Shown here piece after piece: positions 1 to 37,697 of a DNA stretch of 37,697 bases. Both the position numbers and the translations under genes were made by a program. The notes under the pieces were generated by a model. It searched no databases, had not been told where the DNA came from, and saw only the letters and a program-made list of their open reading frames with translations. Origin of the DNA: a plasmid; sequence record NZ_CP016506.1, one strand, 5' to 3'. The stretch's first letter is position 1; each line of letters begins with the position of its first letter.

Positions 1-324
1 CAAGGCAAAAAAATAACTTTTGGCTCCGGCAGATGTTTATTACCAAAAACATCTGCCTAATTTCACACCATTTAATATTTTCTGATTGCCTATTAACCAA
101 TGGAAATTTGCACTTCGATAACAAGCCTAGTATATGTCTATTATTAATACGGAAATGCCACACGCAACCATCTTTTGGTAGATGGCTGAAGTCAAATTAG
201 AAAACTGATATCCAGTACGGATGTTGGATGCAGAGTTTCTTCTTCCGGTCAGAGCCACCAACTAAAGTGTATTAGTCGCGACTTGATCTGACACTGAGCC
301 TTGAAAGGTTGAGAGTTACCGGTT

Positions 325-717
325 TTGATATGGGTGTCGAATCCTTATACAAAACACGAGGTAACTCTCATGCTTCATACTACCAATCCCGTTATCAAAC
401 ACAAAGCCGGTTTGCTCAATCTGGCTGAAGAACTCAGCAACGTATCAAAAGCCTGTAAAATCATGGGCGTTTCGCGTGATACGTTTTATCGTTACCGCGA
501 ACTGGTCGATGAAGGCGGTGTGGATGCGCTGATTAATCGTAGTCGCCGCGCTCCTAACCTTAAGAACCGTACCGATGAGGCAACTGAACAGGCTGTTGTT
601 GATTACGCCGTCGCTTTCCCGGCACACGGTCAGCACCGGACCAGCAACGAGCTGCGTAAACAGGACGTTTTTATCTCCGGCAGTGGTGTCCGTTCTGTCT
701 GGTTGGTTACCCCATAA
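325..717 (+). pseudogene. transposase N-terminal (HTH) fragment, IS481 family
   Basis: 130-aa ORF with a helix-turn-helix transposase N-terminus and no DDE domain following in frame. Confidence 0.6.
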
Positions 718-764
718 CCTTGAGAATTTCAAAAAACGTCTGAAAGCACTGGAAGAAAAAGGCG

Positions 765-1013
765 ATGTCCCCGCAAACCAACGGCATCTGCGAGCGGTTC
801 CATAAAACAATCCTGAACGAATTTTATCAGGTAACGTTCCGTAAAAAACTGTACGGCGATCTTGATACATTACGGTCGGATCTTGATGAATGGCTGGCTC
901 ACTATAATAATGAGCGAACCCATCAGGAAAAAATGTGCAATGGGCGGACGCCAATGGAAACGTTACTTGATGGAAAGCGCATCTGGGCCGAGAAAAATTT
1001 AAGCCAGATGTAA
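765..1013 (+). pseudogene. transposase C-terminal fragment (integrase-core tail), IS481 family
   Basis: 82-aa ORF carrying the NGxxERFHKTxxxEf and YNxxRxHxxxxxxTP motifs typical of the rve-domain C-terminus. Confidence 0.55.
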
Positions 1014-1118
1014 TCTGACAGATACCTGTATAAATAACCGGTAACTGTCAGATCAGGTCTGAGCTAATACAACTAAAGGCAGGAGAACACAAAAATTCCG
1101 TTCTCCAAACAGCCCCAA

Positions 1119-1628
1119 TTATGCTAATGTTCTTGAAACATCGCCATACGTATCAACAAGATACTTTTCTGTTAAATGCAACCCGATACACTTACCAATT
1201 TGTATGGAGTGTTTCCAGACACATGCGGCGGCTTCTTTATCATACTCCCTGAGAGTCCACTTTGATACTTTTGATGCAGTATCATCCAACCCATGCTCAC
1301 TATGAAAACCAAATTCCATATCTATTTCCTTATCTGTGATTAGATCTTTTGACATAAAAATTGGAGCACAAGGAGGATCAATACCATGATTTGGATAACC
1401 TATAGCTACATCATAGATTTTCTCATCAATACAAACCCATGAGTGATCAAAATACGAACCTGTTGCAGGGTTACGAACTTCTCCAATAAGAAGTGTTGGT
1501 TCAAATCCAACTTCCTTTGCCAAAATGTAAAAAACAGCAGATATATCATGACAAGCGCCATACCATTTTTTCTCTTCAACAAGAGAGATTAGATTTTCAA
1601 ATATCTGTTTTAGTTTGGAATTATTCAT
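1119..1628 (-). CDS. hypothetical protein, possible transglutaminase-like Cys-His-Asp peptidase fold
   Basis: The ORF track gives 1119..1868, but that overlaps hns out of frame. The internal ATG at 1628 has an AGAGG RBS. The order GACHD ... DHSW ... CIDEKIYD suggests a Cys/His/Asp triad. Confidence 0.45.
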   Translation of the reverse strand: MNNSKLKQIFENLISLVEEKKWYGACHDISAVFYILAKEVGFEPTLLIGEVRNPATGSYFDHSWVCIDEKIYDVAIGYPNHGIDPPCAPIFMSKDLITDKEIDMEFGFHSEHGLDDTASKVSKWTLREYDKEAAACVWKHSIQIGKCIGLHLTEKYLVDTYGDVSRTLA

Positions 1629-1686
1629 AAAACCTCTAAGCTGATAATAGAAGATCAACCCCTCCCATGAAAGGAGGGCTGTAGAA

Positions 1687-2121
1687 TCACTTCTCGATGA
1701 GAAACTCATCAAGGGAGCGACCTCCTGCCAGTGCTTCTGCAATCGGTTTTGGCGCACGCCCACGACCAGACCAGTATTTCGTTTCGCCATTTTCTTCAAA
1801 TTGATATTTAGGCGGCGCTTTTGGTAACGTTTTTTTACGTGATTTTGGTGCTTCTTCGGACAGACCAAGCAGTTCTTCCGGTGAGAACCCCTCTCCGGCG
1901 ATTAACTGAAGCAGTTCCTGACGTTTCCGTTCACGCTCTGCTCGTTCAGCCGCTTCACGTTCAGCATCTTCACGACGTTCTTCAATAACAACGTTGAGCT
2001 TTTCCTGCATTTCGAGCAACTGCTCAAAATCAATCTCACGGGCAAACACACGCAATGAACGAATATTCATCATAGTCCGGCTGATAATGCCGTATTCATC
2101 TTCTTTAGTCAGTTCGCTCAT
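1687..2121 (-). CDS. hns: H-NS family nucleoid-associated protein (plasmid Sfh/H-NS-like)
   Basis: An N-terminal coiled-coil with an acidic/basic ER-rich linker, then a C-terminal YxxxNGETKxWxGxGRxP DNA-binding motif. An AAGAGGA RBS precedes the start. Confidence 0.88.
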   Translation of the reverse strand: MSELTKEDEYGIISRTMMNIRSLRVFAREIDFEQLLEMQEKLNVVIEERREDAEREAAERAERERKRQELLQLIAGEGFSPEELLGLSEEAPKSRKKTLPKAPPKYQFEENGETKYWSGRGRAPKPIAEALAGGRSLDEFLIEK

Positions 2122-28140: not shown

Positions 28141-28268
28141 TGTGACATTGTCACTTTATGGTCGGAGGTCTGTTTTCTGGTTCTTTTTGAGTGTGCCTTT
28201 CCTGTCGATCTACTTTCTGGTGCATTTTGGGTATAGTGGTGTAACCTTATGTGAACCGGTTCTGTAAT

Positions 28269-28913
28269 ATGACTTCAAATGTACCAACAAGCTTTGTCCG
28301 CGCTTATCTGAGAGCTTCAACAGCAGAACAGGATGCTTCGCGTGCCCTGGAAACTATCGAGGCTTTTGCCAGGGAAAGAGGCCTGATCATTTGCAGCTAC
28401 TATATTGAGAATGAATCCGGCACCCGTCTTGAGCGCCCGGAACTTTTTCGTCTTCTGAGAGATTGCCAACAAAATGACATTTTGCTTATCGAGGATGTGG
28501 ACAGACTTTCCCGCCTGTCAGGGGAAGACTGGAATACGTTGAAGAAAATGATCCGGCAGAAAGACATCCGGGTTATGGCGGTGAATGTGCCGACGACATG
28601 GATTAATTCTGGTATGAGTGAGTTTGACAGCCGGTTGTTTGCAGCCATTAACGATATGCTGCTGGATATGCTGGCCGCAGTTGCCAGAAGGGACTATGAA
28701 CAACGTCGGGAACGCCAGAAACAAGGGATAGAGAAAGCAAAGAAAGACGGCAAATATAAAGGGCGTAAACCTAATCAAGCCAGACATGATGCAATTATCA
28801 GGTTGATAGAAAGCGGTAGCTCCTGGACACAGGTACAGAAAGTGCTAGGGTGCAGCCGTGGCACAATCAGTAATGCGCTAAAACGTAAAACCGGGCAGAA
28901 ATCCAGTAAGTAG
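28269..28913 (+). CDS. serine recombinase (resolvase/invertase family), multimer resolution
   Basis: N-terminal catalytic motif YLRASTAEQ and a C-terminal HTH (GSSWTQVQKVLGCSRGTI). Confidence 0.85.
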   Translation: MTSNVPTSFVRAYLRASTAEQDASRALETIEAFARERGLIICSYYIENESGTRLERPELFRLLRDCQQNDILLIEDVDRLSRLSGEDWNTLKKMIRQKDIRVMAVNVPTTWINSGMSEFDSRLFAAINDMLLDMLAAVARRDYEQRRERQKQGIEKAKKDGKYKGRKPNQARHDAIIRLIESGSSWTQVQKVLGCSRGTISNALKRKTGQKSSK

Positions 28914-29023
28914 AGGAGTAGGGGGCTAATATACCTGCAAGGCAGGATATTAACTCAGGAGATTGGGGGTGTGGTGTTTAGTCAATGCATTTGAATATTG
29001 TAACTAAAATATGTTTTTATTAA

Positions 29024-29050
29024 AGGCCGGAGGTGGTTAGCCCCCGGCCT
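29024..29050. other. GC-rich stem-loop (aggccggaggtggttagcccccggcct) at 3' end of toxin gene; conserved in second toxin locus
   Basis: Inverted repeat with no U-tract. Followed in both loci by the conserved tagttacgtttccgc. Confidence 0.5.
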
Positions 29051-29067
29051 TAGTTACGTTTCCGCCA

Positions 29068-29151
29068 TCAGCCCATCAACTGGAGAAGGTAGCGAATCAG
29101 TTCAAGAAGTGAGATTAGTGCCCCCAGAACGATGATTGCTTTATCAATCAT
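29068..29151 (-). CDS. dinQ: DinQ-like type I toxin peptide (27 aa, MIDKAIIVLGALISLLELIRYLLQLMG), not in ORF track
   Basis: 22 of 27 residues match E. coli DinQ. GGAG RBS 7 nt upstream. A single TM helix. Confidence 0.7.
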   Translation of the reverse strand: MIDKAIIVLGALISLLELIRYLLQLMG

Positions 29152-29253
29152 CCGTTTACTCCATTATATGGAGCAGACTCCCGATACTTACTCTTACACT
29201 GCCTGTCATATCGGTTGTTCTTCGGTGTTGGTTGAAGACAGTTCCACTCCAGC

Positions 29254-29374
29254 CAGAGCCACCAACTCAGGGCTGGAAAACACAAAAAAGCCCGATTACC
29301 CGTCGGGTTTTTTTGTGCCTGTCGTTTGGCTGTACTTCCGTTTTTTCCCCTTCATTTGAGGGATTTTTCTTTCA
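29254..29374 (+). ncRNA. 120-bp repeat A: candidate agrB-like antitoxin sRNA gene (hairpin ccagcc..ggctgg then bidirectional terminator aaaaaagcccgattacccgtcgggttttttt)
   Basis: 96% identical to 34924-35043. Contains a tgcctgtcg stretch resembling tgcctgtca in the toxin leader. Confidence 0.4.
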
Positions 29375-29835
29375 TTTTTTGTTGCAGCCAATACCGCTGA
29401 TCGCGTTGGCCAACAGAACGATGCCGTTACCGGCATTATCATGAATCCCATTTTTTCAGTAAGTTGCAGCATACAAAGTAATTAAAAAAACGTCATTTTT
29501 TGTTGATGGATGCAGTAGCGGTGGTGTGCTACGTGAAATCTGGGAAATGCTGGCGGGTAAGTGACTCAATTTTTTAATCTCCGCACCTGTTTTTTTGGAC
29601 GTGCCAGCAATTATGACCTGAAGCAGAGGTGCGTCCGACAACAAAAATTCCGATCACCAGAAAAAATTTTGGACATTTTTTCCGATAATGCATTTTTGTC
29701 CAGGGGGATATGAACTACAGGGCAGGGCGAAAAGGAAGCGGTTATCTTGAATATCCATAGGATATGGGCTCATATGCCGGAATAGGGCACCAGATAAAGG
29801 AAATGAATTCAGTGTATGTTGTAACTAATAGGATC

Positions 29836-29859
29836 TGGACAGAATCACCTGAACGTCCA
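29836..29859. promoter_or_regulatory. operator-like palindrome TGGACA-N12-cGTCCA (copy 1)
   Basis: One of four near-identical sites, found only in the island. Confidence 0.45.
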
Positions 29860-29961
29860 GTCGGGCGCTAATCTATAATAAATGACCGTAGAAGGGCCAT
29901 TTCTACGGCAAAGTTCTGGAGATGATAAAATAAGAGCCTTAAACAATAAAAGGATTTGCTT

Positions 29962-30069
29962 ATGACACTGGACCAACTGCTTGAAATCCACGACCGCGCT
30001 GGGCTGAGCACCTATGAACAGGAAACAATTATATCTTTCATTAACCAGCGGCGAGGTGACTTGGTGTAA
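29962..30069 (+). CDS. hypothetical 35-aa protein, not in ORF track
   Basis: AAGGA RBS. 6 nt upstream of the next ORF. Confidence 0.3.
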   Translation: MTLDQLLEIHDRAGLSTYEQETIISFINQRRGDLV

Positions 30070-30074
30070 AAGCG

Positions 30075-30362
30075 TTGCCGGAAATTATGCCTCCAGTATC
30101 TTGCGGCTGGATCTCCAGAAGAATAAAACAGCGTTCTCAGGAGCAGGCAGACGAAAATAGCTGGAATTATTATAAACAGAAGATTCAGGAATGGATAACG
30201 CTAATCGAATTGCATGAGGCATCACTTACCAGGGGGGAAAAGCTAACGCACTTTGTGGGAAAGCATAAATGGTGGTTAGGAGGCACTTGCGCAGTTATCG
30301 CATCAATTACAAGCACTGTGATAGCTAGCTGGATTCTTTCGTTATGGACTTGGGCTAACTGA
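30075..30362 (+). CDS. hypothetical C-terminally membrane-anchored protein (95 aa)
   Basis: C-terminal hydrophobic helix (GGTCAVIASITSTVIASWILSLW). Confidence 0.45.
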   Translation: MPEIMPPVSCGWISRRIKQRSQEQADENSWNYYKQKIQEWITLIELHEASLTRGEKLTHFVGKHKWWLGGTCAVIASITSTVIASWILSLWTWAN

Positions 30363-30677
30363 CGTGACAGAAGCTGCGTTACGTCCAAGTTGATAAAAAG
30401 TTGTTATCCACAGAGAACAGGGCGGTCATCCGGCGGGTTCAATAATATGGTATTATTACAGCACCTTAAAAAATAAGGATTGCGGACGGATGATATATTG
30501 ATAAAGGATACTCATGCGTGTAAAACGCAAAATACCCTGAGTAATCAGGGTATTAAACGCGGAAAAGTAAAGGTTGAGCGCTTTACATTTTCCATTCACA
30601 CCAGAGGCGTGACTAAATCTAAAATTGATTCTACGGCAACGTTCAATCTACGTCAAATCGCCAATGGTTTTCCTGTT

Positions 30678-30809
30678 ATGAAAATTACCGGAGGCTTCAT
30701 GTTGTTAACCATCATCGACACCTATCTTCATGCTTCATTACTGACACAGATACTGGTAATCCCGTTTATCTGTGCGGTGGTGTGGGCGGTAAAGAAAATC
30801 CGGGTATAA
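30678..30809 (+). CDS. small hydrophobic peptide (43 aa; or 36 aa from ATG 30699 after GGAGG)
   Basis: A single TM helix with a KKIRV tail. A strong terminator lies downstream. The ORF track's 109-aa version lacks an RBS. Confidence 0.4.
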   Translation: MKITGGFMLLTIIDTYLHASLLTQILVIPFICAVVWAVKKIRV

Positions 30810-30813
30810 CTTA

Positions 30814-30860
30814 AACATGGCTGGCTGAGAGGCCAGCCATGTTCAGTGAGTTTTGTTTCG
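30814..30860 (+). terminator. Rho-independent terminator (aacatggctggc..gccagccatgtt + T-rich)
   Basis: 12-bp perfect stem followed by gttttgttt. Confidence 0.7.
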
Positions 30861-30862
30861 AA

Positions 30863-30886
30863 TGGACAGAATTACCTGAGTGTCCA
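30863..30886. promoter_or_regulatory. operator-like palindrome TGGACA-N12-TGTCCA (copy 2)
   Basis: Upstream of the 116-aa gene. Confidence 0.45.
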
Positions 30887-30959
30887 ACCCATTGCGGCGC
30901 AGGGATAAAGCTGTAAACTTTTACTGATGAACAAAGTAGCCCGTTGGGCATAAGACAAC

Positions 30960-31310
30960 ATGGAGCAAACCTTGGCTAAGGTAACCAGAATTCAGGCCGG
31001 AAGATACGCAGTCGATGATGGGCGTTGCATTATAAAAAATAACTCTGGGTGGCTTATTGTCGATGCTAATGGCGCTCATGATTTTGGACCTGTCCCCACA
31101 TTAGCAGCAGCTAAGGAATATGTTGAGTCTGGTACTGTTCCGCTAAGGCAGCACAATTTTTCTACATCTCATGGTCGAAGACAAAGTAAAAAAGAATTTA
31201 ATGCGTATTTGGCATCTGAAGCTAAAAATGGCAATCCAATGCCAGCCATTCTTTGGATAATTGTCCTTTGCATCATCTGCGGCATTGTAGTTGCAGTTCG
31301 AGGTTATTAA
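30960..31310 (+). CDS. hypothetical C-terminally membrane-anchored protein (116 aa)
   Basis: Soluble N-terminal domain and a C-terminal TM helix (ILWIIVLCIICGIVVAV). Confidence 0.5.
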   Translation: MEQTLAKVTRIQAGRYAVDDGRCIIKNNSGWLIVDANGAHDFGPVPTLAAAKEYVESGTVPLRQHNFSTSHGRRQSKKEFNAYLASEAKNGNPMPAILWIIVLCIICGIVVAVRGY

Positions 31311-31313
31311 TCT

Positions 31314-31337
31314 TGGACAGAAAATGCTGTATGTCCA
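31314..31337. promoter_or_regulatory. operator-like palindrome TGGACA-N12-TGTCCA (copy 3)
   Basis: Upstream of the 169-aa gene and the OLD gene. Confidence 0.45.
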
Positions 31338-31393
31338 GTCAGCCGGAGAATTATACTAGCGACCATGATCATCACAGGAAGAACGCGTAACAG

Positions 31394-31903
31394 ATGGCAA
31401 CTGAGTGGGTAGATGTGGCTGATAATGCCGTTAAAATTGGGCTGGGTGCATTAATCACCATTGTTGGTGGCTGGATTACACTGAAATTAACACACTGCCA
31501 CGAAATAAGAAAAGATGCAATAGCTCAGCGACTGCGGGATATAGATAAAAAAACTGACCGCTATATAGATTTTCTTTCTTCATCGCAAACGCTAATGCAG
31601 AAATATCTTTATGAATCATGTGATCCAGGTAGCGAGGACTACACCAATTATATGCGGTTGCATAATATTGTAAGCCTGACATCCTCCCCTGAATTGCGAA
31701 TCTATGCTTTTGATACTCAGTCCAAAGTATCGCAATTTATCCTGCTCAGAAAGCCCAACGAACCAGAGGTTATTGATTCCTGTCGCAATGCCGCGAGAAA
31801 CGCCGTTTCTGTGCTTCAGGGGGCAGTGAGTGCTGAATTGCTTCAGGATAAAGCAGCACTTCAGGACAAACAACATGCATGGTGGGCTTTCTGGCGAAAA
31901 TAA
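31394..31903 (+). CDS. hypothetical N-terminally membrane-anchored protein (169 aa)
   Basis: AGGAAG RBS. N-terminal TM helix. Confidence 0.55.
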   Translation: MATEWVDVADNAVKIGLGALITIVGGWITLKLTHCHEIRKDAIAQRLRDIDKKTDRYIDFLSSSQTLMQKYLYESCDPGSEDYTNYMRLHNIVSLTSSPELRIYAFDTQSKVSQFILLRKPNEPEVIDSCRNAARNAVSVLQGAVSAELLQDKAALQDKQHAWWAFWRK

Positions 31904-32008
31904 AGCAGAACAGTGGAGGAAGAGCCATTTATCCAAGTAGCGAAAGACAGTTAAAGCCTTGGGAAAAAATGTCGATAATCCGAGCAATATTCTATCGTAG
32001 GAAGAAAA

Positions 32009-33910
32009 ATGGAAATAGTATCATTTAAAGTTTCTCAGTATAGGTCTATTTCAGGGGAGATATCCTCTGATAACTTTAATGGATTAACCATTGTTGGGCA
32101 AAACAACAGTGGTAAAACAAACCTATTAAAAGCTATGAGGGTTTTTTTTGAAGGAAAATTTAATCCTGACTTATATGACTATGAAAAAGATAAGCCACAT
32201 GGTGTTAAGCAAGGACAAACTAGTTTTGCTGTAAGATTTACTTTTTCTGAAAGTGAGCTAGATGATGTCTCTGAGGATTTGAGCCAAGACGATGATGATG
32301 ACGATGATGACTCGATTATTGAACTTGGTGTTTTAGGGGAGCAAGAAGAACCTAGTAATTCTATTTCATTTGATGATGGCAGCTCTAAACAACAAGAATC
32401 AAAACCAACTCAATCAAGAGGCAGAAAGCTAAGTTTGAGAGATAGATATTTGCAGCTGTTTAACATGATTGATGACTCCAGGTTAAATTCACCTCAAAAC
32501 GAAGTGACCGTACATCTGACAATATCTAATAAAAACAATTACTTTTACACTGTCTTTAAAGGTTACAAGAGGAAACCTGAAGTAACTTCCTCCATGTATA
32601 CATCTGTTGAAAGAAGGTTCATAGAAAAAATACTTTCTAGTTTTGAGTGTGTGTATATACCATCGTCAAAAAGTATTGATGATATATATCATAATCTATT
32701 AGTTCCATATGTTAGGAGTGAAGTAGCTTCAGCCATGAAAACATCGGTTCAAGTGATTCATGATAAACTGTTGGAAGTGTCTGAAAAGATAACAAATGAA
32801 ATGATTCTAAGCGGTATAGATGACTGTAGCTTTATGATTAAAGCTCCGCCATCTCTTGATGAGTTATTTGGTCGCTTTGAGGTTTCAATAAAAGATACTA
32901 TTGAGAATGTGATATCGAGTAAAGGTATGGGGCTACAATGCTTATCTTTATTTTCTTCATTTAAATCTATTTCAGAGAGAAAACTTACTCTAGGTAAGAA
33001 AACGATTTGGATGGTTGAGGAGCCTGAGTCTTTCTTGCATCCCTCATTAGGCCGGTCATGTAATCACATTTTCAAATCACTGATGGATGTTGCTTATGTT
33101 CTTATTACAACTCATTCCTTATCATTTGTCAGTGATGAGCCAAGTAAGATCATTGAGTTATATAAAGATGACGCCGGTGTTACAAAAGATAAAAAGCATG
33201 AAAAAAGATTTAATGCAGTTGCAAGCATAAGAGAAAATCTTGGGGTCAGATTTTCTGATTTCTTTAACATATCAAGTAGTGCAGTTTTCGTTGAAGGTAT
33301 CACCGACAAACAATATATAGAATCAATATTGAAATTGACATCTGAACATGATGAGTTTAAGAACAGATGGCCTTTTCTGAGGAGTGCTAAAGTTGATGAG
33401 TTTGGTGGAGTCAGTCAACTTGGGGGATTCTTGAAAGGGTGCTACGAGTTTATTTCTAAAGATGTCCCCGTAATATCTGTTTTTGACGGTGATGAAGCTG
33501 GGGTCAAAGAAAGAACCAGATTACAAAGCTACTTTGGTAAAAAACAAATTAGATTTGAGTCAAATAAAGACTATATTTCTGTAAGAAGTGGTTTTGCTAT
33601 TGAAGGCCTCTTCCCTGACGATTTCATTTCTGACGCAATGGAAACCCATCCGTCGTGGTTTATCGGAGGAAAATCTGTTGATGCCGATGATGTAATTGAA
33701 CCATTCAAAGTGCAAGATAATAAAAAAACTAACTTATTAAATTTCTTCCTGGAAAAATGTCGTGTTCAACCTATATGCGGTTGGATTTCTCGGTGGGAAA
33801 AGGTGTTTAACGTCATAGACTCAGCCTTGCGAGATAAAAGTGAATCCATCACAAACAAAAAACGAACCGAAGATACTTCCGGTAACACTTCAGCTCATCA
33901 AGCTGCATAA
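32009..33910 (+). CDS. OLD-family ATP-dependent nuclease (ABC-type ATPase + C-terminal Toprim)
   Basis: Walker A GQNNSGKTNLLKA. The OLD signature Walker B VEEPESFLHP. H-loop ITTHS. Toprim motifs VFVEGITD and FDGDEAG. AGGAAG RBS. Confidence 0.85.
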   Translation: MEIVSFKVSQYRSISGEISSDNFNGLTIVGQNNSGKTNLLKAMRVFFEGKFNPDLYDYEKDKPHGVKQGQTSFAVRFTFSESELDDVSEDLSQDDDDDDDDSIIELGVLGEQEEPSNSISFDDGSSKQQESKPTQSRGRKLSLRDRYLQLFNMIDDSRLNSPQNEVTVHLTISNKNNYFYTVFKGYKRKPEVTSSMYTSVERRFIEKILSSFECVYIPSSKSIDDIYHNLLVPYVRSEVASAMKTSVQVIHDKLLEVSEKITNEMILSGIDDCSFMIKAPPSLDELFGRFEVSIKDTIENVISSKGMGLQCLSLFSSFKSISERKLTLGKKTIWMVEEPESFLHPSLGRSCNHIFKSLMDVAYVLITTHSLSFVSDEPSKIIELYKDDAGVTKDKKHEKRFNAVASIRENLGVRFSDFFNISSSAVFVEGITDKQYIESILKLTSEHDEFKNRWPFLRSAKVDEFGGVSQLGGFLKGCYEFISKDVPVISVFDGDEAGVKERTRLQSYFGKKQIRFESNKDYISVRSGFAIEGLFPDDFISDAMETHPSWFIGGKSVDADDVIEPFKVQDNKKTNLLNFFLEKCRVQPICGWISRWEKVFNVIDSALRDKSESITNKKRTEDTSGNTSAHQAA

Positions 33911-33984
33911 TCGATTGTGTGCACCAAGGTTGCACATACACCTGATTAATCAAGAGTGAGACCATAACAAGCCTATATCAGATA

Positions 33985-34016
33985 ACAGCCCTCTTCATAA
34001 GAGGGCTGTCTTTTTC
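33985..34016 (+). terminator. Rho-independent terminator (acagccctcttcataagagggctgt + TTTTT)
   Basis: 10-bp stem and a T-run. Confidence 0.75.
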
Positions 34017-34239
34017 GCGGGCATCGTACTTGGAAAATGGAAAACATCCTACGCTAAGAGCGTTTTTTAAACAACCGGCTTGTTGGTTTTTACGAGATAC
34101 TGTGCAGTTGAAGGAACAAGATAAAGGAATTAAAGACCCTTTAGTACCATACTTTCATGAAATTTTCCCATATTTTCTTTTAGATCGTGCAACAGCGAAA
34201 AGACGTAGGAATTGGCTTGATTAGCCGCAATACTATTTC

Positions 34240-34262
34240 TGGACAGAATGAGTGTATGTCCA
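34240..34262. promoter_or_regulatory. operator-like palindrome TGGACA-N11-TGTCCA (copy 4)
   Basis: Downstream of the OLD gene and upstream of the toxin-2 locus. Confidence 0.45.
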
Positions 34263-34441
34263 AGTCGGGCGAGGAATTAAACGAGGGGCGTAAAAAAGGC
34301 CGCTTACGCGACCTCAGCCTTTTGCGGTTTTGGCTTGGTGATATACCACGATAGACAACCGACAAACATCGCAACAGGGAAAGGAAGAAGTAAACAGCGC
34401 CCCAAAATGCTCATAAAATCCATAAATCCTCCTTTGTTAAA

Positions 34442-34470
34442 GGGCAGGAAGCGGTTCACTTCCTGCCCTT
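34442..34470. other. GC-rich stem-loop (gggcaggaagcggttcacttcctgccc) at 3' end of second toxin gene
   Basis: Counterpart of 29024-29050, followed by the same tagttacgtttccgc. Confidence 0.5.
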
Positions 34471-34489
34471 AGTTACGTTTCCGCTGTCA

Positions 34490-34585
34490 TCAGTCGATGA
34501 ACTGGCGAATCAGTTCCAGAATTGCAATCAGCGCGTTTGCAACGGCGACCACAGCCCTGAGAACGATGATTAACAAATTAATCAT
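34490..34585 (-). CDS. DinQ-family-like type I toxin peptide 2 (31 aa, MINLLIIVLRAVVAVANALIAILELIRQFID), not in ORF track
   Basis: Same architecture as 29068-29151, with GGAG-aaacgg-ATG, a shared ELIR motif, and the same flanking sequences. Confidence 0.6.
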   Translation of the reverse strand: MINLLIIVLRAVVAVANALIAILELIRQFID

Positions 34586-34923
34586 CCGTTTCTCCAGTAA
34601 AACTGGAGGAAATCACCGTTGCTTACTCATACACTGCCTGTCACAACGGCTCTCTCGCATTGTTAGGTGTAGAGTGACCTCCTCCTGCCAGAGCACCGAA
34701 TACAGCACCACCTGTTTATCCAGCCAGGACTTTAAAATCGTTCATACCCGCAGATACGGGAAGGGCAGGATTGCAAGTCAACTACATGACTAACTGACTG
34801 ATTATACGCTACACAAAACACCCGTTACACCACTAAATGTGGTTCCTTAACCACATTTAGTTGCTTTACAGCACCATAGTGAATAAAATGTAAACGTTAG
34901 GTGTAGAGTAACCTTCTCCAGTC

Positions 34924-35043
34924 AGAGCCACCAACTCAGGGCTGGAAAACACAAAAAAGCCCGATTACCAGTCGGGTTTTTTTGTGCCTGTCGTTCGGCT
35001 GTACTTCCGTTTTTCCCCCTTCATTTGAGGGATTTTTCTTTCA
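34924..35043 (+). ncRNA. 120-bp repeat B: second copy of candidate agrB-like sRNA gene with bidirectional terminator
   Basis: 96% identical to 29254-29374. Confidence 0.4.
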
Positions 35044-35181
35044 GTTTTTTATCGGTGACTGTTTCATGGCTGGATTAATGTGGGGGTAAGGTATAGAGCA
35101 TTGCCTAACCTGCAAACTTTCAATACATTAGTAAGATTAGGATTTTTACTTACTCATCCAAACGAAAAAATGGAATGAAAA

Positions 35182-37697
35182 ATGATTGATTTCACAAATA
35201 AACTCAAGAAAAAAGAACTCCCAAAGAGAATCAACCCAGTTGAAATATATGAGTCATTAGATAGACGTAGCGAAGCTGGTCCATTACGGCCTTCCCAAAA
35301 AACCATTCTAGAACAATGGTTTAACAGTAGACGTAACGAAAGGGATAATATAATTAAACTACACACCGGGGAAGGTAAAACATTAATTGGGTTGCTAATT
35401 TTGCAGTCTAAAATCAATGAGACCAATAGCCCTTGTTTATATGTTTGTCCTAATATTTACTTGGCAAAGCAAGCTGTCAAAGATGCAGAGAAATTTGGCA
35501 TCCCTTATTGTATAATCGATCATAGTAAAATGATACCGGATGATTTCCTTTCAGGAAGAAAAATACTAATCACTCACGTCCAAAAATTATTCAATGGGAA
35601 AACTGCTTTTGGCTTGGGCAGTAAGTCAATTCATGTTAATTCAATTATTTTAGATGACTCACAAGCATGCATTGACTCAATTAAGAACAGCTTTACTATT
35701 AAAGTAGATAATGAAAGCGATCTTTACAAATCAATATTAAATATTTTTTCTGATGAACTACGTGAACAAGGTGAAGGTAGTTACTTAGAAATACAAAATG
35801 GAGTTGGAAATAATACATTACTTCCAATACCATATTGGTCATGGATTGATAAAAAAGAGTTGGTAGCGCAAGAATTACTTAAAAATATTGAAGATAAAAG
35901 AGTGTCTTTCATTTGGCCTTTGATAAAAAATGAAATACACAACTGCCAAGCATTTCTATCTGGTGAATATTTGGAGATTTCACCAATTTTTTCACTAATA
36001 GATTCCTTTGGTAGCTTCAGTAAGGCTAACCATCGTTTTCTAATGTCTGCAACTACACAAGATGATTCATTTTTTATCAAAGGATTAGGCTTTGACGTCG
36101 AAGCGATTAAAAAACCTTTGGTGAATCCTGATCTTGTTTGGTCAGGAGAAAAAATGATTCTAATACCATCATTAATTGATGAGACATTAGACCGTGAAAA
36201 GATCATAAACTGGTTGCTTCGTCCAAATGATAAACGAACATTTGGAACAGTATGTTTAGCACCTAGCTTTGCTAATATAAAACAATTCCAGCGAATTGGG
36301 GCTATTGTAGCAACTACAGAGACAATTTACGACTGCATTGAAAAGTTAAAAAGAGGTGAATTTTCCAATTCAATGGTCTTTGCAAACCGCTACGATGGCA
36401 TTGATTTACCTGATAATTCATGTCGTATTTTAATTATTGACTCTAAGCCATACTCTGAAACTTTAACAGATAGATATGAAGAGGAATGCAGGCCAAGCAG
36501 TGATATCATTAATGTAAAGACAGCCCAGCGTGTGGAACAAGGGTTAGGTCGGAGCGTGAGGGGCGAAAAAGATTATAGCGTAATTATAATCACCGGTGGT
36601 GATCTTGTTCAATTTTTAAAAAGCCCATTAACTACAAAATATTTCTCTCCTCAAACCAGAATGCAAATTGAAATAGGAGGTCAAATTGTAGGTTTTGCTA
36701 AAGATGAAATTGATGAAGGTGCAGAGGCTGATAAATTATTCGTCGGATTAATTAATAAATCTTTGCAACGTGATGAAGGTTGGAAAGAGTATTATGTTGA
36801 AAGCATGAATGAAATTGACATTAGAGATAGAAAAGATAATCTTTATGATCTAATTTCACTAGAATACAAAGCTGAAAAATTATTTATCAAAGGTGATTTA
36901 GACAAAGCATGTGATGTATTGCAAGATATTTGTGATAGATATATTGAGGATGAAATGGAGAAAGGATGGTATCTTCAACTTCAAGCGAGGTACAAATATA
37001 GTATAAGTAAAATTGAATCTAATAAAATTCAAAAATCAGCGTTCCAGCGAAACTGCAATCTACTCAAACCTAAAGATGGTGTTATATATAAAAAAATTGA
37101 CAACATCAATGCTACCAGGGCAAATAGAATAAATAAATGGGTTAGCGCACATACTGATTATCAATCTCTTATGATTTCCGTTGATAGCATCTTGCAAAAT
37201 ATTTCCTTTGGCATTCAATCTGATAAATTTGAAGATGCTTTGCATAACTTAGGTGTTTCTATTGGATTTGTTTGCCAACGACCTGATAAGGAAATCAAAA
37301 AAGGACCTGATAATCTATGGGGGGATGTAGATGGACAGTACTTCCTCTTTGAGTGCAAAAATGAAGTTGATGAAAACCGTTCTGAAATTAATAAAATAGA
37401 AGCAGGTCAGATGAATAACCACTGTGGCTGGTTCGCAGATGAATACGGTAATGCAAAGTGCAAAAAAATCATAATAATAAACACAAGAACACTTTCATAT
37501 CATGGAGATTTCAATGATGAAATATTTGTTATGCGGAAATCAAAGCTTAAACTATTAAAGGATAATGTAAGATCTTTTTTCAAAGAGTTCAAAAATTATG
37601 ACTTGCAATCATTGGATGAGACCATTATCCACAAGTTTATTAAGCCACATAATTTAGATATTGAAAGTCTAACTTCCATTTACACTGAATCAATAAT
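35182..37697 (+). CDS. SF2 helicase (motif I HTGEGKT, motif III SAT, DinG/Rad3-like motif VI QGLGRSVRGEKD) fused to C-terminal PD-(D/E)xK-type nuclease motif (D..VDG..FLFECK); 3' end beyond window
   Basis: An uninterrupted frame of at least 838 codons, translated by hand. Absent from the ORF track because there is no stop inside the window. Very AT-rich. Confidence 0.75.
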   Translation, partial: MIDFTNKLKKKELPKRINPVEIYESLDRRSEAGPLRPSQKTILEQWFNSRRNERDNIIKLHTGEGKTLIGLLILQSKINETNSPCLYVCPNIYLAKQAVKDAEKFGIPYCIIDHSKMIPDDFLSGRKILITHVQKLFNGKTAFGLGSKSIHVNSIILDDSQACIDSIKNSFTIKVDNESDLYKSILNIFSDELREQGEGSYLEIQNGVGNNTLLPIPYWSWIDKKELVAQELLKNIEDKRVSFIWPLIKNEIHNCQAFLSGEYLEISPIFSLIDSFGSFSKANHRFLMSATTQDDSFFIKGLGFDVEAIKKPLVNPDLVWSGEKMILIPSLIDETLDREKIINWLLRPNDKRTFGTVCLAPSFANIKQFQRIGAIVATTETIYDCIEKLKRGEFSNSMVFANRYDGIDLPDNSCRILIIDSKPYSETLTDRYEEECRPSSDIINVKTAQRVEQGLGRSVRGEKDYSVIIITGGDLVQFLKSPLTTKYFSPQTRMQIEIGGQIVGFAKDEIDEGAEADKLFVGLINKSLQRDEGWKEYYVESMNEIDIRDRKDNLYDLISLEYKAEKLFIKGDLDKACDVLQDICDRYIEDEMEKGWYLQLQARYKYSISKIESNKIQKSAFQRNCNLLKPKDGVIYKKIDNINATRANRINKWVSAHTDYQSLMISVDSILQNISFGIQSDKFEDALHNLGVSIGFVCQRPDKEIKKGPDNLWGDVDGQYFLFECKNEVDENRSEINKIEAGQMNNHCGWFADEYGNAKCKKIIIINTRTLSYHGDFNDEIFVMRKSKLKLLKDNVRSFFKEFKNYDLQSLDETIIHKFIKPHNLDIESLTSIYTESI

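What the first reader, a model, noticed from the sequence alone, without database searches (positions are those of the whole stretch)
35182..37697. Large helicase-nuclease fusion missing from the ORF track (runs off window end)
Hand translation gives more than 838 codons with no stop. It carries SF2 motifs I (GEGKT), III (SAT), V and a DinG/Rad3-like motif VI (QGLGRSVRGEKD). Motif II is atypical (ILDDSQ rather than DEAH). Near the visible C-terminus there is a PD-(D/E)xK signature (GDVDGQYFLFECK). Helicase plus restriction-type nuclease fusions are the hallmark of Res, Nhi and Hachiman-like defence proteins. Here it is separated from the OLD gene by its own terminator and a toxin cassette, so it may be an independent system or a partner acting in trans.
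Basis: partly seen in the sequence, partly recalled or inferred. Interest (0 to 1): 0.7.

Follow-up and report, generated by a model that had tools for sequence, protein, structure and literature searches.

The report
Plasmid-borne Hna anti-phage helicase-nuclease
The long open frame is a real, intact 843-residue gene that wraps around the origin of a circular IncX1 conjugative plasmid, and it is a clear member of the already described and structurally solved Hna family of single-protein anti-phage defence enzymes, so it is ordinary rather than new.

Summary
Window 35182-37697 (+) is an 838-codon frame with no stop. It does not really run off the end. The window is a complete circular IncX1 conjugative plasmid, and the frame closes at window position 16, giving an 843-aa protein.

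The protein matches Sinorhizobium meliloti Hna end to end: 43% identity, E = 4.6e-235 against PDB 10UJ/9YKJ/9YHN. An AlphaFold2 model (pLDDT 83.5) finds the Hna monomer as best structural match (E = 2.6e-77, TM 0.77). DinG and XPD helicases score about 65 orders of magnitude weaker. All residues shown by mutagenesis to matter in Hna are kept and are invariant in 32 homologues. PADLOC's candidate "PDC-S28" is the same family.

The gene is stand-alone. It occurs with or without the neighbouring OLD gene on sister plasmids. No methyltransferase or partner gene lies downstream. Distant homologues have unrelated neighbours.

The most likely mechanism is inferred from Hna. The protein would be an ATP-bound, auto-inhibited dimer. 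A phage single-stranded-DNA-binding protein would release it to act as a 3'-5' ssDNA exonuclease, causing abortive infection.

The families it named (Res, Nhi, Hachiman) and its choice of catalytic Asp do not. Novelty and interest are low.

The parts
35182..37697 (+). hna coding sequence, codons 1-838 plus 2 bases of codon 839
   Evidence: Open frame. Full-length match to S. meliloti Hna, PDB 10UJ/9YKJ/9YHN, E = 4.6e-235. PADLOC PDC-S28, 1052 bits. The start is supported by the homologues: the alignment to S. meliloti Hna begins at residue 1 of both proteins, and M1, D3 and F4 are nearly invariant.
1..16 (+). End of the hna coding sequence across the plasmid origin: rest of codon 839, codons 840-843, and stop TAA at 14-16
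   Evidence: The window end and start are contiguous in NZ_CP059949.1. The joined frame gives 843 aa plus a stop, the same length as the annotated 843-aa CDS.
35269..35298 (+). Residues S30-Q39: HEL1 loop equivalent to the Hna dimer interface (T30/D31/P34 becomes S30/E31/P34) and the Q-motif R36/Q39 that coordinates ATP
   Evidence: Residue mapping from the alignment. Roles from the mutants in PMC13381803. S30, P34, R36 and Q39 are invariant, and E31 is present in 29 of 32.
35368..35382 (+). Motif I / Walker A, G63-E-G-K66-T67
   Evidence: Invariant in 32 homologues. Lies within the ResIII/DEAD Pfam match.
35653..35664 (+). Motif II / Walker B, D158-D159-S160-Q161
   Evidence: DDS is invariant. 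Position 161 is H in 23 and Q in 9 of 32. S. meliloti Hna has DDAH.
36046..36054 (+). Motif III, S289-A-T291
   Evidence: Invariant.
36538..36573 (+). Motif VI, Q453-GLGRSVRGEK-D464 (DinG/XPD type)
   Evidence: Q453, G454, G456, R457, S458, V459, R460 and G461 are invariant. Lies within the Helicase_C_2 Pfam match, residues 382-470.
37069..37110 (+). Residues 630-643: flexible linker between the helical part of HEL2 and the nuclease domain
   Evidence: pLDDT below 50 in the model. Corresponds to the 'long, unstructured linker' described for Hna.
37117..37697 (+). C-terminal PD-(D/E)XK nuclease (NUC) domain, from about residue 646 to 843 (continues to window position 13)
   Evidence: [quoted passage not shown] It aligns with the NUC domain of 9YHN.
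37306..37311 (+). Nuclease 'PD': P709-D710, equivalent to Hna P712/D713
   Evidence: Invariant. Part of the P712A/D713A/E727A triple mutant of Hna, whose ssDNA cleavage was markedly reduced.
37351..37359 (+). Nuclease 'ExK': E724-C725-K726, equivalent to Hna E727/K729
   Evidence: E724 and K726 are invariant. Hna K729A abolishes exonuclease activity.
28..57 (+). Perfect 11-bp inverted repeat (GGCAGATGTTT, 8-nt loop, AAACATCTGCC) 12 bases after the hna stop; possible terminator
   Evidence: Read directly from the sequence and conserved in NZ_CP059949.1. The terminator scan did not call it because no T-run follows.

Best explanation
The gene encodes an Hna-family protein (helicase-nuclease abortive infection). 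Hna is a stand-alone, single-protein anti-phage system. Here it is carried as low-GC cargo in the accessory region of an IncX1 conjugative plasmid.

Shown here:
- The gene is intact and 843 aa long.
- It is homologous over its full length to S. meliloti Hna and has the same fold.
- It has the HEL1-HEL2-NUC architecture, with every experimentally important residue conserved.
- It has no conserved partner gene.

Inferred from the biochemistry of S. meliloti Hna:
- In uninfected cells the protein binds ATP and sits as an auto-inhibited homodimer, held through the N-terminal HEL1 loop (S30/E31/P34 here).
- The SF2 core acts as an ssDNA-stimulated ATPase and ssDNA binder, not as an unwinding helicase.
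- The C-terminal PD-(D/E)XK domain (D710, E724, K726) then degrades ssDNA 3'-to-5' in a Mg2+/Mn2+-dependent way.
- The cell dies or arrests without releasing phage, which is abortive infection.
For: Sequence:
- phmmer against PDB chains gives one hit, 10UJ/9YKJ/9YHN (845 aa), E = 4.6e-235, query 1-837 against chain 1-840.
- 10UJ and 9YKJ are the Hna monomer and dimer.
- BLASTP gives 43.0% identity over 834 residues with 9 gaps.
- tblastn finds the founding locus on pSymA at 42.7% identity. SMa2245 is Hna.

Structure:
- The AF2 model has pLDDT 83.5.
- Foldseek's best hit is 9YHN 'Hna Monomer', E = 2.6e-77, TM 0.77/0.79, 824 aligned columns.
- The next family (XPD, DinG, CasDinG) scores E of about 1e-12, TM of about 0.35.

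Residues:
- Hna T30/D31/P34, R36/Q39 and P712/D713/E727/K729 map to S30/E31/P34, R36/Q39 and P709/D710/E724/K726.
- All of these except E31 (29 of 32) are invariant in 32 homologues of 57-89% identity.

Domains and profiles:
- Pfam gives ResIII plus Helicase_C_2, the pair listed for Hna in PMC11232893.
- PADLOC model PDLC04986 'PDC-S28' scores 1052 bits for this protein and 1018 bits for S. meliloti Hna.

Stand-alone status:
- Sister IncX1 plasmids carry hna without OLD or OLD without hna.
- Homologues in Proteus, Pseudomonas and Vibrio sit in prophage ends or islands with unrelated neighbours.
- hna alone restores resistance in S. meliloti.

Mechanism: PMC13381803.

Cargo status:
- GC is 33.1% against 42.5% for the backbone.
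- It is present in only 2 of 5426 complete E. coli genomes.
- Homologues occur on 175 plasmids, 77 of them predicted conjugative.
Against: - Nothing here tests function. No phage challenge or biochemistry exists for this enterobacterial allele that I could find.
- At 43% identity the trigger could differ. The Hna authors themselves expect orthologues to differ in function and in which phage factors they recognise.
- Two of the three dimer-loop residues are conservative substitutions (T to S, D to E), not identities.
- Motif II ends in Q rather than the family's majority H. The effect is unknown.
- No promoter for the gene was identified. Consensus hits in the region are no more frequent than in shuffled sequence.
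- The founding paper (Sather et al. 2023) was not available to read, so its family definition is taken second-hand.
Confidence: 0.9

Rival explanations
1. It is a housekeeping DinG/XPD/Rad3-type DNA-repair helicase that happens to be plasmid-borne.
For: The Helicase_C_2 Pfam domain and the DinG-type motif VI are present. DinG, XPD and CasDinG are the next structural neighbours after Hna. There is a weak PADLOC typeIV_DinG hit.
Against: - Those structural matches are about 65 orders of magnitude weaker than Hna, cover only the helicase part and share 10-15% identity.
- NCBIfam dinG_rel scores 28.7 bits against a cut-off of 547.7.
- The motif I to motif II spacing is 92 residues, which leaves no room for the Fe-S insertion. 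Hna lacks the Fe-S cluster.
- The extra C-terminal PD-(D/E)XK domain is invariant.
- The gene is in only 2 of 5426 E. coli genomes, on mobile elements, with low GC.
Confidence: 0.01
2. It is the helicase partner of the upstream OLD-family ATPase-nuclease, forming a Gabija-like two-gene system or acting with it in trans.
For: An OLD/GajA-like gene lies 1.27 kb upstream on the same strand. Both genes are defence-type cargo in the same accessory region.
Against: - The genes assort independently. The OLD gene is on 148 plasmids, while this hna (89% identity or more) is on about 11.
- hna occurs without OLD in NZ_CP059949.1 and CP099185.1. OLD occurs without hna in NZ_CP146677.1.
- A strong terminator (33985-34009), reverse-strand type I toxin genes and an AgrB RNA lie between them.
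- GajB is a UvrD-type SF1 helicase, not a DinG-like SF2.
- No distant homologue examined has an OLD neighbour.
- hna alone is sufficient in S. meliloti.
Confidence: 0.03
3. It is the restriction (Res) subunit of a Type III or Type I-like restriction-modification system, or of a Dnd-type restriction module.
For: Pfam ResIII matches at 1.5e-11. There is a weak NCBIfam dnd_restrict_1 match of 29 bits.
Against: - Both matches cover only residues 35-158, the first RecA lobe. The dnd model's cut-off is 600 bits.
- No methyltransferase or specificity gene lies anywhere near it on the circular plasmid.
- The best matches by far are Hna.
Confidence: 0.01
4. It belongs to a different helicase-nuclease defence family: Nhi, Hachiman HamB(+HamA), or the anti-plasmid DdmD.
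For: The general logic of helicase plus PD-(D/E)XK nuclease is shared. Several of these systems also respond to phage SSB.
Against: - No PADLOC hit to Nhi, HamA/HamB or DdmD reached E <= 0.01. Only PDC-S28, typeIV_DinG, PbeA, SngC and Cas3b appeared.
- Nhi has an N-terminal nuclease and an SF1 helicase, is about 610 aa, and so has the opposite domain order.
- Hachiman and DdmDE are two-gene systems, and no partner gene is present here.
Confidence: 0.01

Closest known systems
Hna (helicase-nuclease abortive infection) of Sinorhizobium meliloti, SMa2245; PDB 10UJ, 9YKJ, 9YHN
   Same: - Similar length (843 against 845 aa).
- Colinear over the whole protein at 43% identity.
- Same HEL1-HEL2-NUC architecture and the same predicted fold (TM 0.77).
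- The Walker A, DDxH/Q, SAT, motif VI, Q-motif R36/Q39, dimer-loop Pro and nuclease PD...ExK residues are all conserved.
- Both are single genes with no partner.
- Both are plasmid-borne: pSymA there, IncX1 here.
   Different: - 57% of residues differ.
- The S. meliloti protein has a 6-residue insert after residue 48.
- The dimer loop is S-E-x-x-P here, against T-D-x-x-P.
- Motif II is DDSQ here, against DDAH.
- The host is an enterobacterium and the carrier is a small conjugative plasmid.
- The phage range and the triggering protein are untested here.
PADLOC candidate system PDC-S28
   Same: This protein and S. meliloti Hna both match model PDLC04986 end to end, at 1052 and 1018 bits. PDC-S28 is therefore the same family under a candidate name.
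   Different: PDC-S28 is only a computational candidate label with no mechanism attached. The one paper that mentions it uses it in a census.
DinG / XPD / CasDinG helicases, including the 'ExoDinG' 3'-5' exonucleases
   Same: They share the SF2 DinG-type core (Helicase_C_2, motif VI) and are the nearest non-Hna structural neighbours. The Hna authors compare Hna with ExoDinG because both are 3'-5' ssDNA exonucleases.
   Different: - Only 10-15% identity, and the match covers the helicase part only.
- No Fe-S domain here.
- The nuclease here is a C-terminal PD-(D/E)XK domain. From my own knowledge, not tested here, ExoDinG carries an N-terminal DnaQ-like exonuclease.
Other helicase-nuclease defence systems: Nhi, Hachiman (HamAB), Gabija (GajAB), DdmDE
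   Same: They combine an ATPase or helicase sensor with a nuclease effector. Hachiman and Nhi are also activated by phage SSB, and Hachiman also acts by abortive infection.
   Different: They have different helicase superfamilies or domain order, or they are two-gene systems. No significant profile matches were found here.

Membership tests
Hna | Full-length sequence homology to the founding protein, S. meliloti SMa2245 | tested here: met
   E = 4.6e-235, query 1-837 against chain 1-840 of 845. 43.0% identity with 9 gaps. tblastn hit to pSymA NC_003037.1 1257359-1259881.
Hna | Single polypeptide of about 840 aa with an N-terminal SF2 core (ResIII plus Helicase_C_2) and a C-terminal PD-(D/E)XK nuclease | tested here: met
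   843 aa. Pfam ResIII 35-158 and Helicase_C_2 382-470. [quoted passage not shown] Description of Hna.
Hna | Same three-dimensional fold as the solved Hna structure | tested here: met
   Foldseek top hit 9YHN, E = 2.6e-77, TMq 0.77, TMt 0.79, 824 columns. 9YKJ chains come next. This is a predicted model, not an experimental structure.
Hna | Conservation of residues shown by mutagenesis to be required: nuclease K729, P712/D713/E727; ATP-site R36/Q39; dimer loop T30/D31/P34 | tested here: met
   K726, P709/D710/E724 and R36/Q39 are identical and invariant. The dimer loop is S30/E31/P34, with conservative changes at two positions.
Hna | DinG/XPD-like core without the Fe-S cluster domain | tested here: inconclusive
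   The motif I to motif II spacing of 92 residues leaves no room for an XPD-type insertion. The model superposes on Hna, which lacks the cluster. Metal content cannot be tested here. Cysteines 85, 89, 110 and 163 exist in lobe 1, and only C89 and C163 are invariant.
Hna | Acts alone, with no conserved partner gene, and is carried on mobile elements or defence islands | tested here: met
   Neighbours differ in the IncX1 sister plasmids and in Proteus, Pseudomonas and Vibrio. There is no downstream partner on the circle.
Hna | Confers phage resistance by abortive infection, triggered by a phage SSB | not testable with these tools
   Known only for S. meliloti Hna. No data were found for this allele.
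Hna | 3'-5' ssDNA exonuclease inhibited by ATP-dependent dimerisation, with no unwinding activity | not testable with these tools
   Biochemistry of S. meliloti Hna. Inferred here from residue conservation.
DinG/XPD repair helicases | Score above the curated family threshold, an Fe-S domain, and chromosomal housekeeping distribution | tested here: not met
   NCBIfam dinG_rel scores 28.7 bits against a 547.7 cut-off. Structural E is about 1e-12 with 10-15% identity. Present in 2 of 5426 E. coli genomes, both on plasmids.
Gabija (GajA + GajB) | An OLD-family GajA with an adjacent, co-inherited UvrD-type SF1 helicase GajB | tested here: not met
   The helicase here is SF2 DinG-like. It lies 1.27 kb away, beyond a terminator and reverse-strand genes. 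The two genes assort independently.
Type III R-M Res subunit | A cognate Mod methyltransferase in the same operon | tested here: not met
   No methyltransferase appears in the annotated sister plasmids or in the window around the gene.

The most novel reading that the evidence does not exclude
Because this Hna sits on a self-transmissible IncX1 plasmid, its main selected role might be plasmid-against-plasmid competition rather than phage defence. Conjugative DNA enters cells as ssDNA, and from my own knowledge many conjugative plasmids express their own SSB early after entry. Such an SSB could trigger Hna's 3'-5' ssDNA exonuclease against incoming rival plasmids. The carrier plasmid would then also need some way of sparing its own transfer. 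Nothing here tests this. The Hna authors only speculate that plasmid DNA may be degraded.
Probability: 0.07. Interest if true: 0.5.

Novelty: already known. Interest (0 to 1): 0.12.

Why it matters
It matters little for discovery. The family, its structure and a detailed mechanism are already published. Three practical points remain.
1. RefSeq labels this protein only 'DEAD/DEAH box helicase family protein', and PADLOC-DB 2.0.0 labels it 'PDC-S28'. Both could be renamed Hna.
2. It shows that a linearised circular replicon can hide a complete gene from an ORF track.
3. It documents Hna as swappable cargo, next to an OLD-family system, in the accessory region of IncX1 plasmids that circulate in Salmonella and E. 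coli from livestock. This is relevant to phage therapy or biocontrol against such strains.

Tried and rejected
- The founding paper, Sather et al. 2023 (PubMed 36893733), is not in the library. Its claims are taken from papers that cite it.
- A literature search for 'PDC-S28' found only a Bacillus cereus census.
- Searches of the phage collection, by DNA and by protein, found a single record. It is a 501-kb Salmonella Infantis contig and not informative.
- The promoter scan gave no more hits than shuffled sequence and none convincingly placed upstream of hna. The hairpin after the stop codon is not called as a terminator.
- I looked for a link between Hna and lactococcal Abi systems after the 51% hit on pMRC01. 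The review mentions Hna only for comparison.
- I considered and rejected these readings: housekeeping DinG, Type III Res, a Gabija-like partner of OLD, Nhi, Hachiman and DdmD. See the rival explanations.
- I did not use the large representative-protein search. Family size is already stated as about 2% of genomes, and 3227 homologues were found.
Full report
**Observation**

Translating window 35182-37697 on the + strand gives 838 codons with no stop. The other five frames of the same stretch contain 25-135 stops. At the gene's own base composition, the chance of 843 stop-free codons is about 7e-32. The frame is missing from the mechanical ORF list only because that tool omits ORFs that reach a window end.

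**The ORF is complete**

A megablast of the region found two E. coli 'plasmids' of 35-38 kb. The annotated record NZ_CP059949.1 is a circular 37.7-kb replicon. It carries a VirB-type T4SS, a MobP1 relaxase, ddp1/ddp3, topoisomerase III, H-NS and Hha. The last 60 and first 120 bases of the window are contiguous in that record (97-98% identical). Joining the window's end to its start extends the frame by five codons (I-K-A-K-K) to a TAA at positions 14-16. This gives 843 aa, matching the annotated 843-aa CDS with two substitutions. The window is therefore a whole circular plasmid. Its closest relative is Salmonella Heidelberg pB182_37, typed IncX1, conjugative, MOBP, MPF_T. That plasmid has the same local gene order and a protein identical over 838 aa.

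**What the protein is**

- Pfam finds ResIII/DEAD at residues 35-162 and Helicase_C_2 at 382-470. This is a DinG/XPD-type SF2 core.
- PADLOC gives an end-to-end match to the candidate single-gene system 'PDC-S28' (1052 bits, profile 1-826 of 831). It gives only marginal matches to anything else.
- A sequence search of all PDB chains returns a single hit. It is an 845-aa chain in 10UJ, 9YKJ and 9YHN, with E = 4.6e-235, colinear from residue 1 to 837.
- 10UJ and 9YKJ are the cryo-EM structures of the Hna monomer and dimer from Sinorhizobium meliloti (Hooper et al., Nat Commun 2026, PMC13381803).
- Identity to S. meliloti Hna is 43.0% with nine gap positions. tblastn also finds the founding locus on pSymA. 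SMa2245 is Hna.
- Scanning S. meliloti Hna against PADLOC hits the same PDC-S28 model at 1018 bits. PDC-S28 and Hna are one family.

**Structure**

I built an AlphaFold2 model from an alignment of 32 family members. It has mean pLDDT 83.5 and pTM 0.69.
- The C-terminal part shows helix 680-693, strands 697-699, 711-716 and 719-725, helix 738-755 and strand 759-765. [quoted passage not shown]
- A low-confidence linker at 630-643 matches the flexible linker described for Hna.
- Foldseek against the PDB ranks 9YHN 'Hna Monomer' first (E = 2.6e-77, TM 0.77/0.79, 824 columns). The two 9YKJ chains come next.
- XPD, DinG and CasDinG follow at E of about 1e-12 to 1e-10, TM of about 0.35 and 10-15% identity. 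They cover only the helicase part.

**Residues**

Using the ungapped stretches of the alignment, the residues mutated in the Hna study map as follows:
- Dimer loop T30/D31/P34 maps to S30/E31/P34.
- ATP-site R36/Q39 maps to R36/Q39.
- Nuclease P712/D713/E727/K729 maps to P709/D710/E724/K726.

In 32 homologues of 57-89% identity, these are invariant: S30, P34, R36, Q39, G63-E-G-K-T67, D158-D159-S160, S289-A-T291, the motif VI residues, P709, D710, E724 and K726.

Motif II is DD(S/A)(H/Q) across the family. The fourth position is H in 23 sequences and Q in 9, and S. meliloti has DDAH.

D715 is Gly in 24 of 32 homologues. D717 is Asp or Glu in 29 of 32. The invariant and experimentally tested Asp is D710 in GPDNLW.

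**Stand-alone status and context**

- Relative to NZ_CP059949.1, window positions of about 29.65-34.29 kb are absent, while hna is retained. That segment holds the OLD-family ATPase-nuclease and the small ORFs upstream of it.
- NZ_CP146677.1 has the OLD segment but no hna. CP099185.1 has hna but no OLD.
- The OLD gene is on 148 plasmids. This hna allele is on about 11 enterobacterial plasmids.
- Between OLD and hna lie a strong terminator (33985-34009), a reverse-strand DinQ-like type I toxin gene (dqlB, 34490-34585) and an AgrB antisense RNA (34897-34984).
- Downstream of hna on the circle there is a hairpin (28-57), an IS fragment (325-1013), then hns and hha on the other strand. No methyltransferase or partner gene is present.
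- More distant homologues have unrelated neighbours. In Proteus mirabilis the gene is at the end of a lambda-like prophage. In Pseudomonas putida it is next to the portal gene of a P2-like prophage. In Vibrio parahaemolyticus it is in an island with HipA.
- hna alone restores phage resistance in S. meliloti.
- hna is 33.1% GC against 42.5% for the T4SS backbone. It occurs in only 2 of 5426 complete E. coli genomes. Homologues are on 175 plasmids, of which 77 are predicted conjugative.

**Mechanism**

The mechanism below is inferred by homology. It is not shown for this protein. For S. meliloti Hna the literature shows the following:
- It has Mg2+/Mn2+-dependent 3'-5' exonuclease activity on ssDNA and on 3' overhangs. 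K729A abolishes this activity.
- ATP binding inhibits the nuclease by stabilising a homodimer through the HEL1 loop. The dimer mutant cleaves ssDNA more than 10-fold faster than wild type.
- It shows no unwinding activity. It has ssDNA-stimulated ATPase activity, and the ATPase and nuclease sites compete. Nuclease-enhanced mutants are toxic.
- The gp2.5-like SSB of phage 5A dissolves the dimer and activates the nuclease. Escape mutants of the SSB do not.
- The outcome is abortive infection.

Every residue involved is conserved here, so I assign the same mechanism. Confidence is about 0.9 for family membership, and somewhat lower for the identity of the trigger in enterobacteria.

**Rivals**

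The following readings each fail a tested defining feature: a housekeeping DinG/XPD helicase, a Type III Res subunit, a Gabija-like partner of OLD, and membership of Nhi, Hachiman or DdmD. Details are in the rival explanations and membership test.

**Verdict**

The protein is a stand-alone defence helicase-nuclease, but the family is Hna, which is already known, structurally solved and mechanistically described.
- Novelty is 'already known' and interest is low.
- The small added value is an annotation point (PDC-S28 and 'DEAD/DEAH box helicase family protein' are Hna). It also documents a swappable defence slot on IncX1 plasmids.

Noticed in passing
window 1-37697 (whole): The window is a complete circular IncX1 conjugative plasmid. 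It has a VirB-type T4SS, MobP1 relaxase, ddp1/ddp3, TopB, H-NS and Hha, and is nearly identical in layout to Salmonella Heidelberg pB182_37. Any feature touching either window end should be read across the junction.
   Followed up: yes
window 28914-37697 joined to 1-1686 (between the resolvase gene 28251-28913 and hns 1687-2121): This accessory region behaves as a variable defence-cargo slot among IncX1 plasmids. Relatives have OLD only (NZ_CP146677.1, with IS3, an HTH gene and an EAL gene in place of hna), hna only (CP099185.1, NZ_CP059949.1), or both (this window, pB182_37).
   Followed up: partly
window 29247-29380 and 34916-35049: A 134-nt direct repeat, 96% identical and 5669 bases apart, brackets the OLD segment plus the dqlB cassette. 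It overlaps the two Rfam AgrB antisense-RNA matches (29228-29315 at 69.6 bits; 34897-34984 at 62.8 bits). Recombination between the copies could add or remove the OLD cargo. A third, more diverged partial copy lies at 34662-34705.
   Followed up: partly
window 29068-29151 (-) and 34490-34585 (-): Two DinQ-like type I toxin genes are present: MIDKAIIVLGALISLLELIRYLLQLMG (27 aa, dinQ) and MINLLIIVLRAVVAVANALIAILELIRQFID (31 aa, dqlB). Each lies next to an AgrB-like RNA. They are probably plasmid-stabilising modules flanking the defence cargo.
   Followed up: partly
window 30960-33910 (+): The OLD-family ATPase-Toprim gene (32009-33910; PADLOC Old 4.6e-19, also AriA- and GajA-like) is always accompanied by two upstream ORFs of unknown function (30960-31310 and 31394-31903; no Pfam, PADLOC or NCBIfam hits). 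All three were present in both of the other OLD-bearing plasmids inspected. This may be a three-gene OLD system, and its class was not determined.
   Followed up: no
window 325-1013: Fragments of an IS transposase lie just downstream of hna: HTH_29 in ORF 325-717 and rve_3 in ORF 765-1013. Window 268-1732 has no counterpart in NZ_CP059949.1.
   Followed up: partly
plasmid record NC_001949.1 38022-40535 (hit H15, not fetched as a locus): The 60,232-bp Lactococcus lactis plasmid record NC_001949.1 (pMRC01, as I recall; the name was not returned by the search) encodes a 51%-identical full-length Hna homologue. From my own memory, that plasmid has a long-known abortive-infection phenotype. Whether this gene is responsible was not checked. 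The 2026 lactococcal Abi review does not make the link.
   Followed up: partly
plasmid record NZ_CP023476.1 7082-9592 (hit H13): In one Salmonella IncX-size plasmid the hna homologue (89% identity) is annotated as three separate CDS pieces. This suggests a disrupted copy.
   Followed up: no
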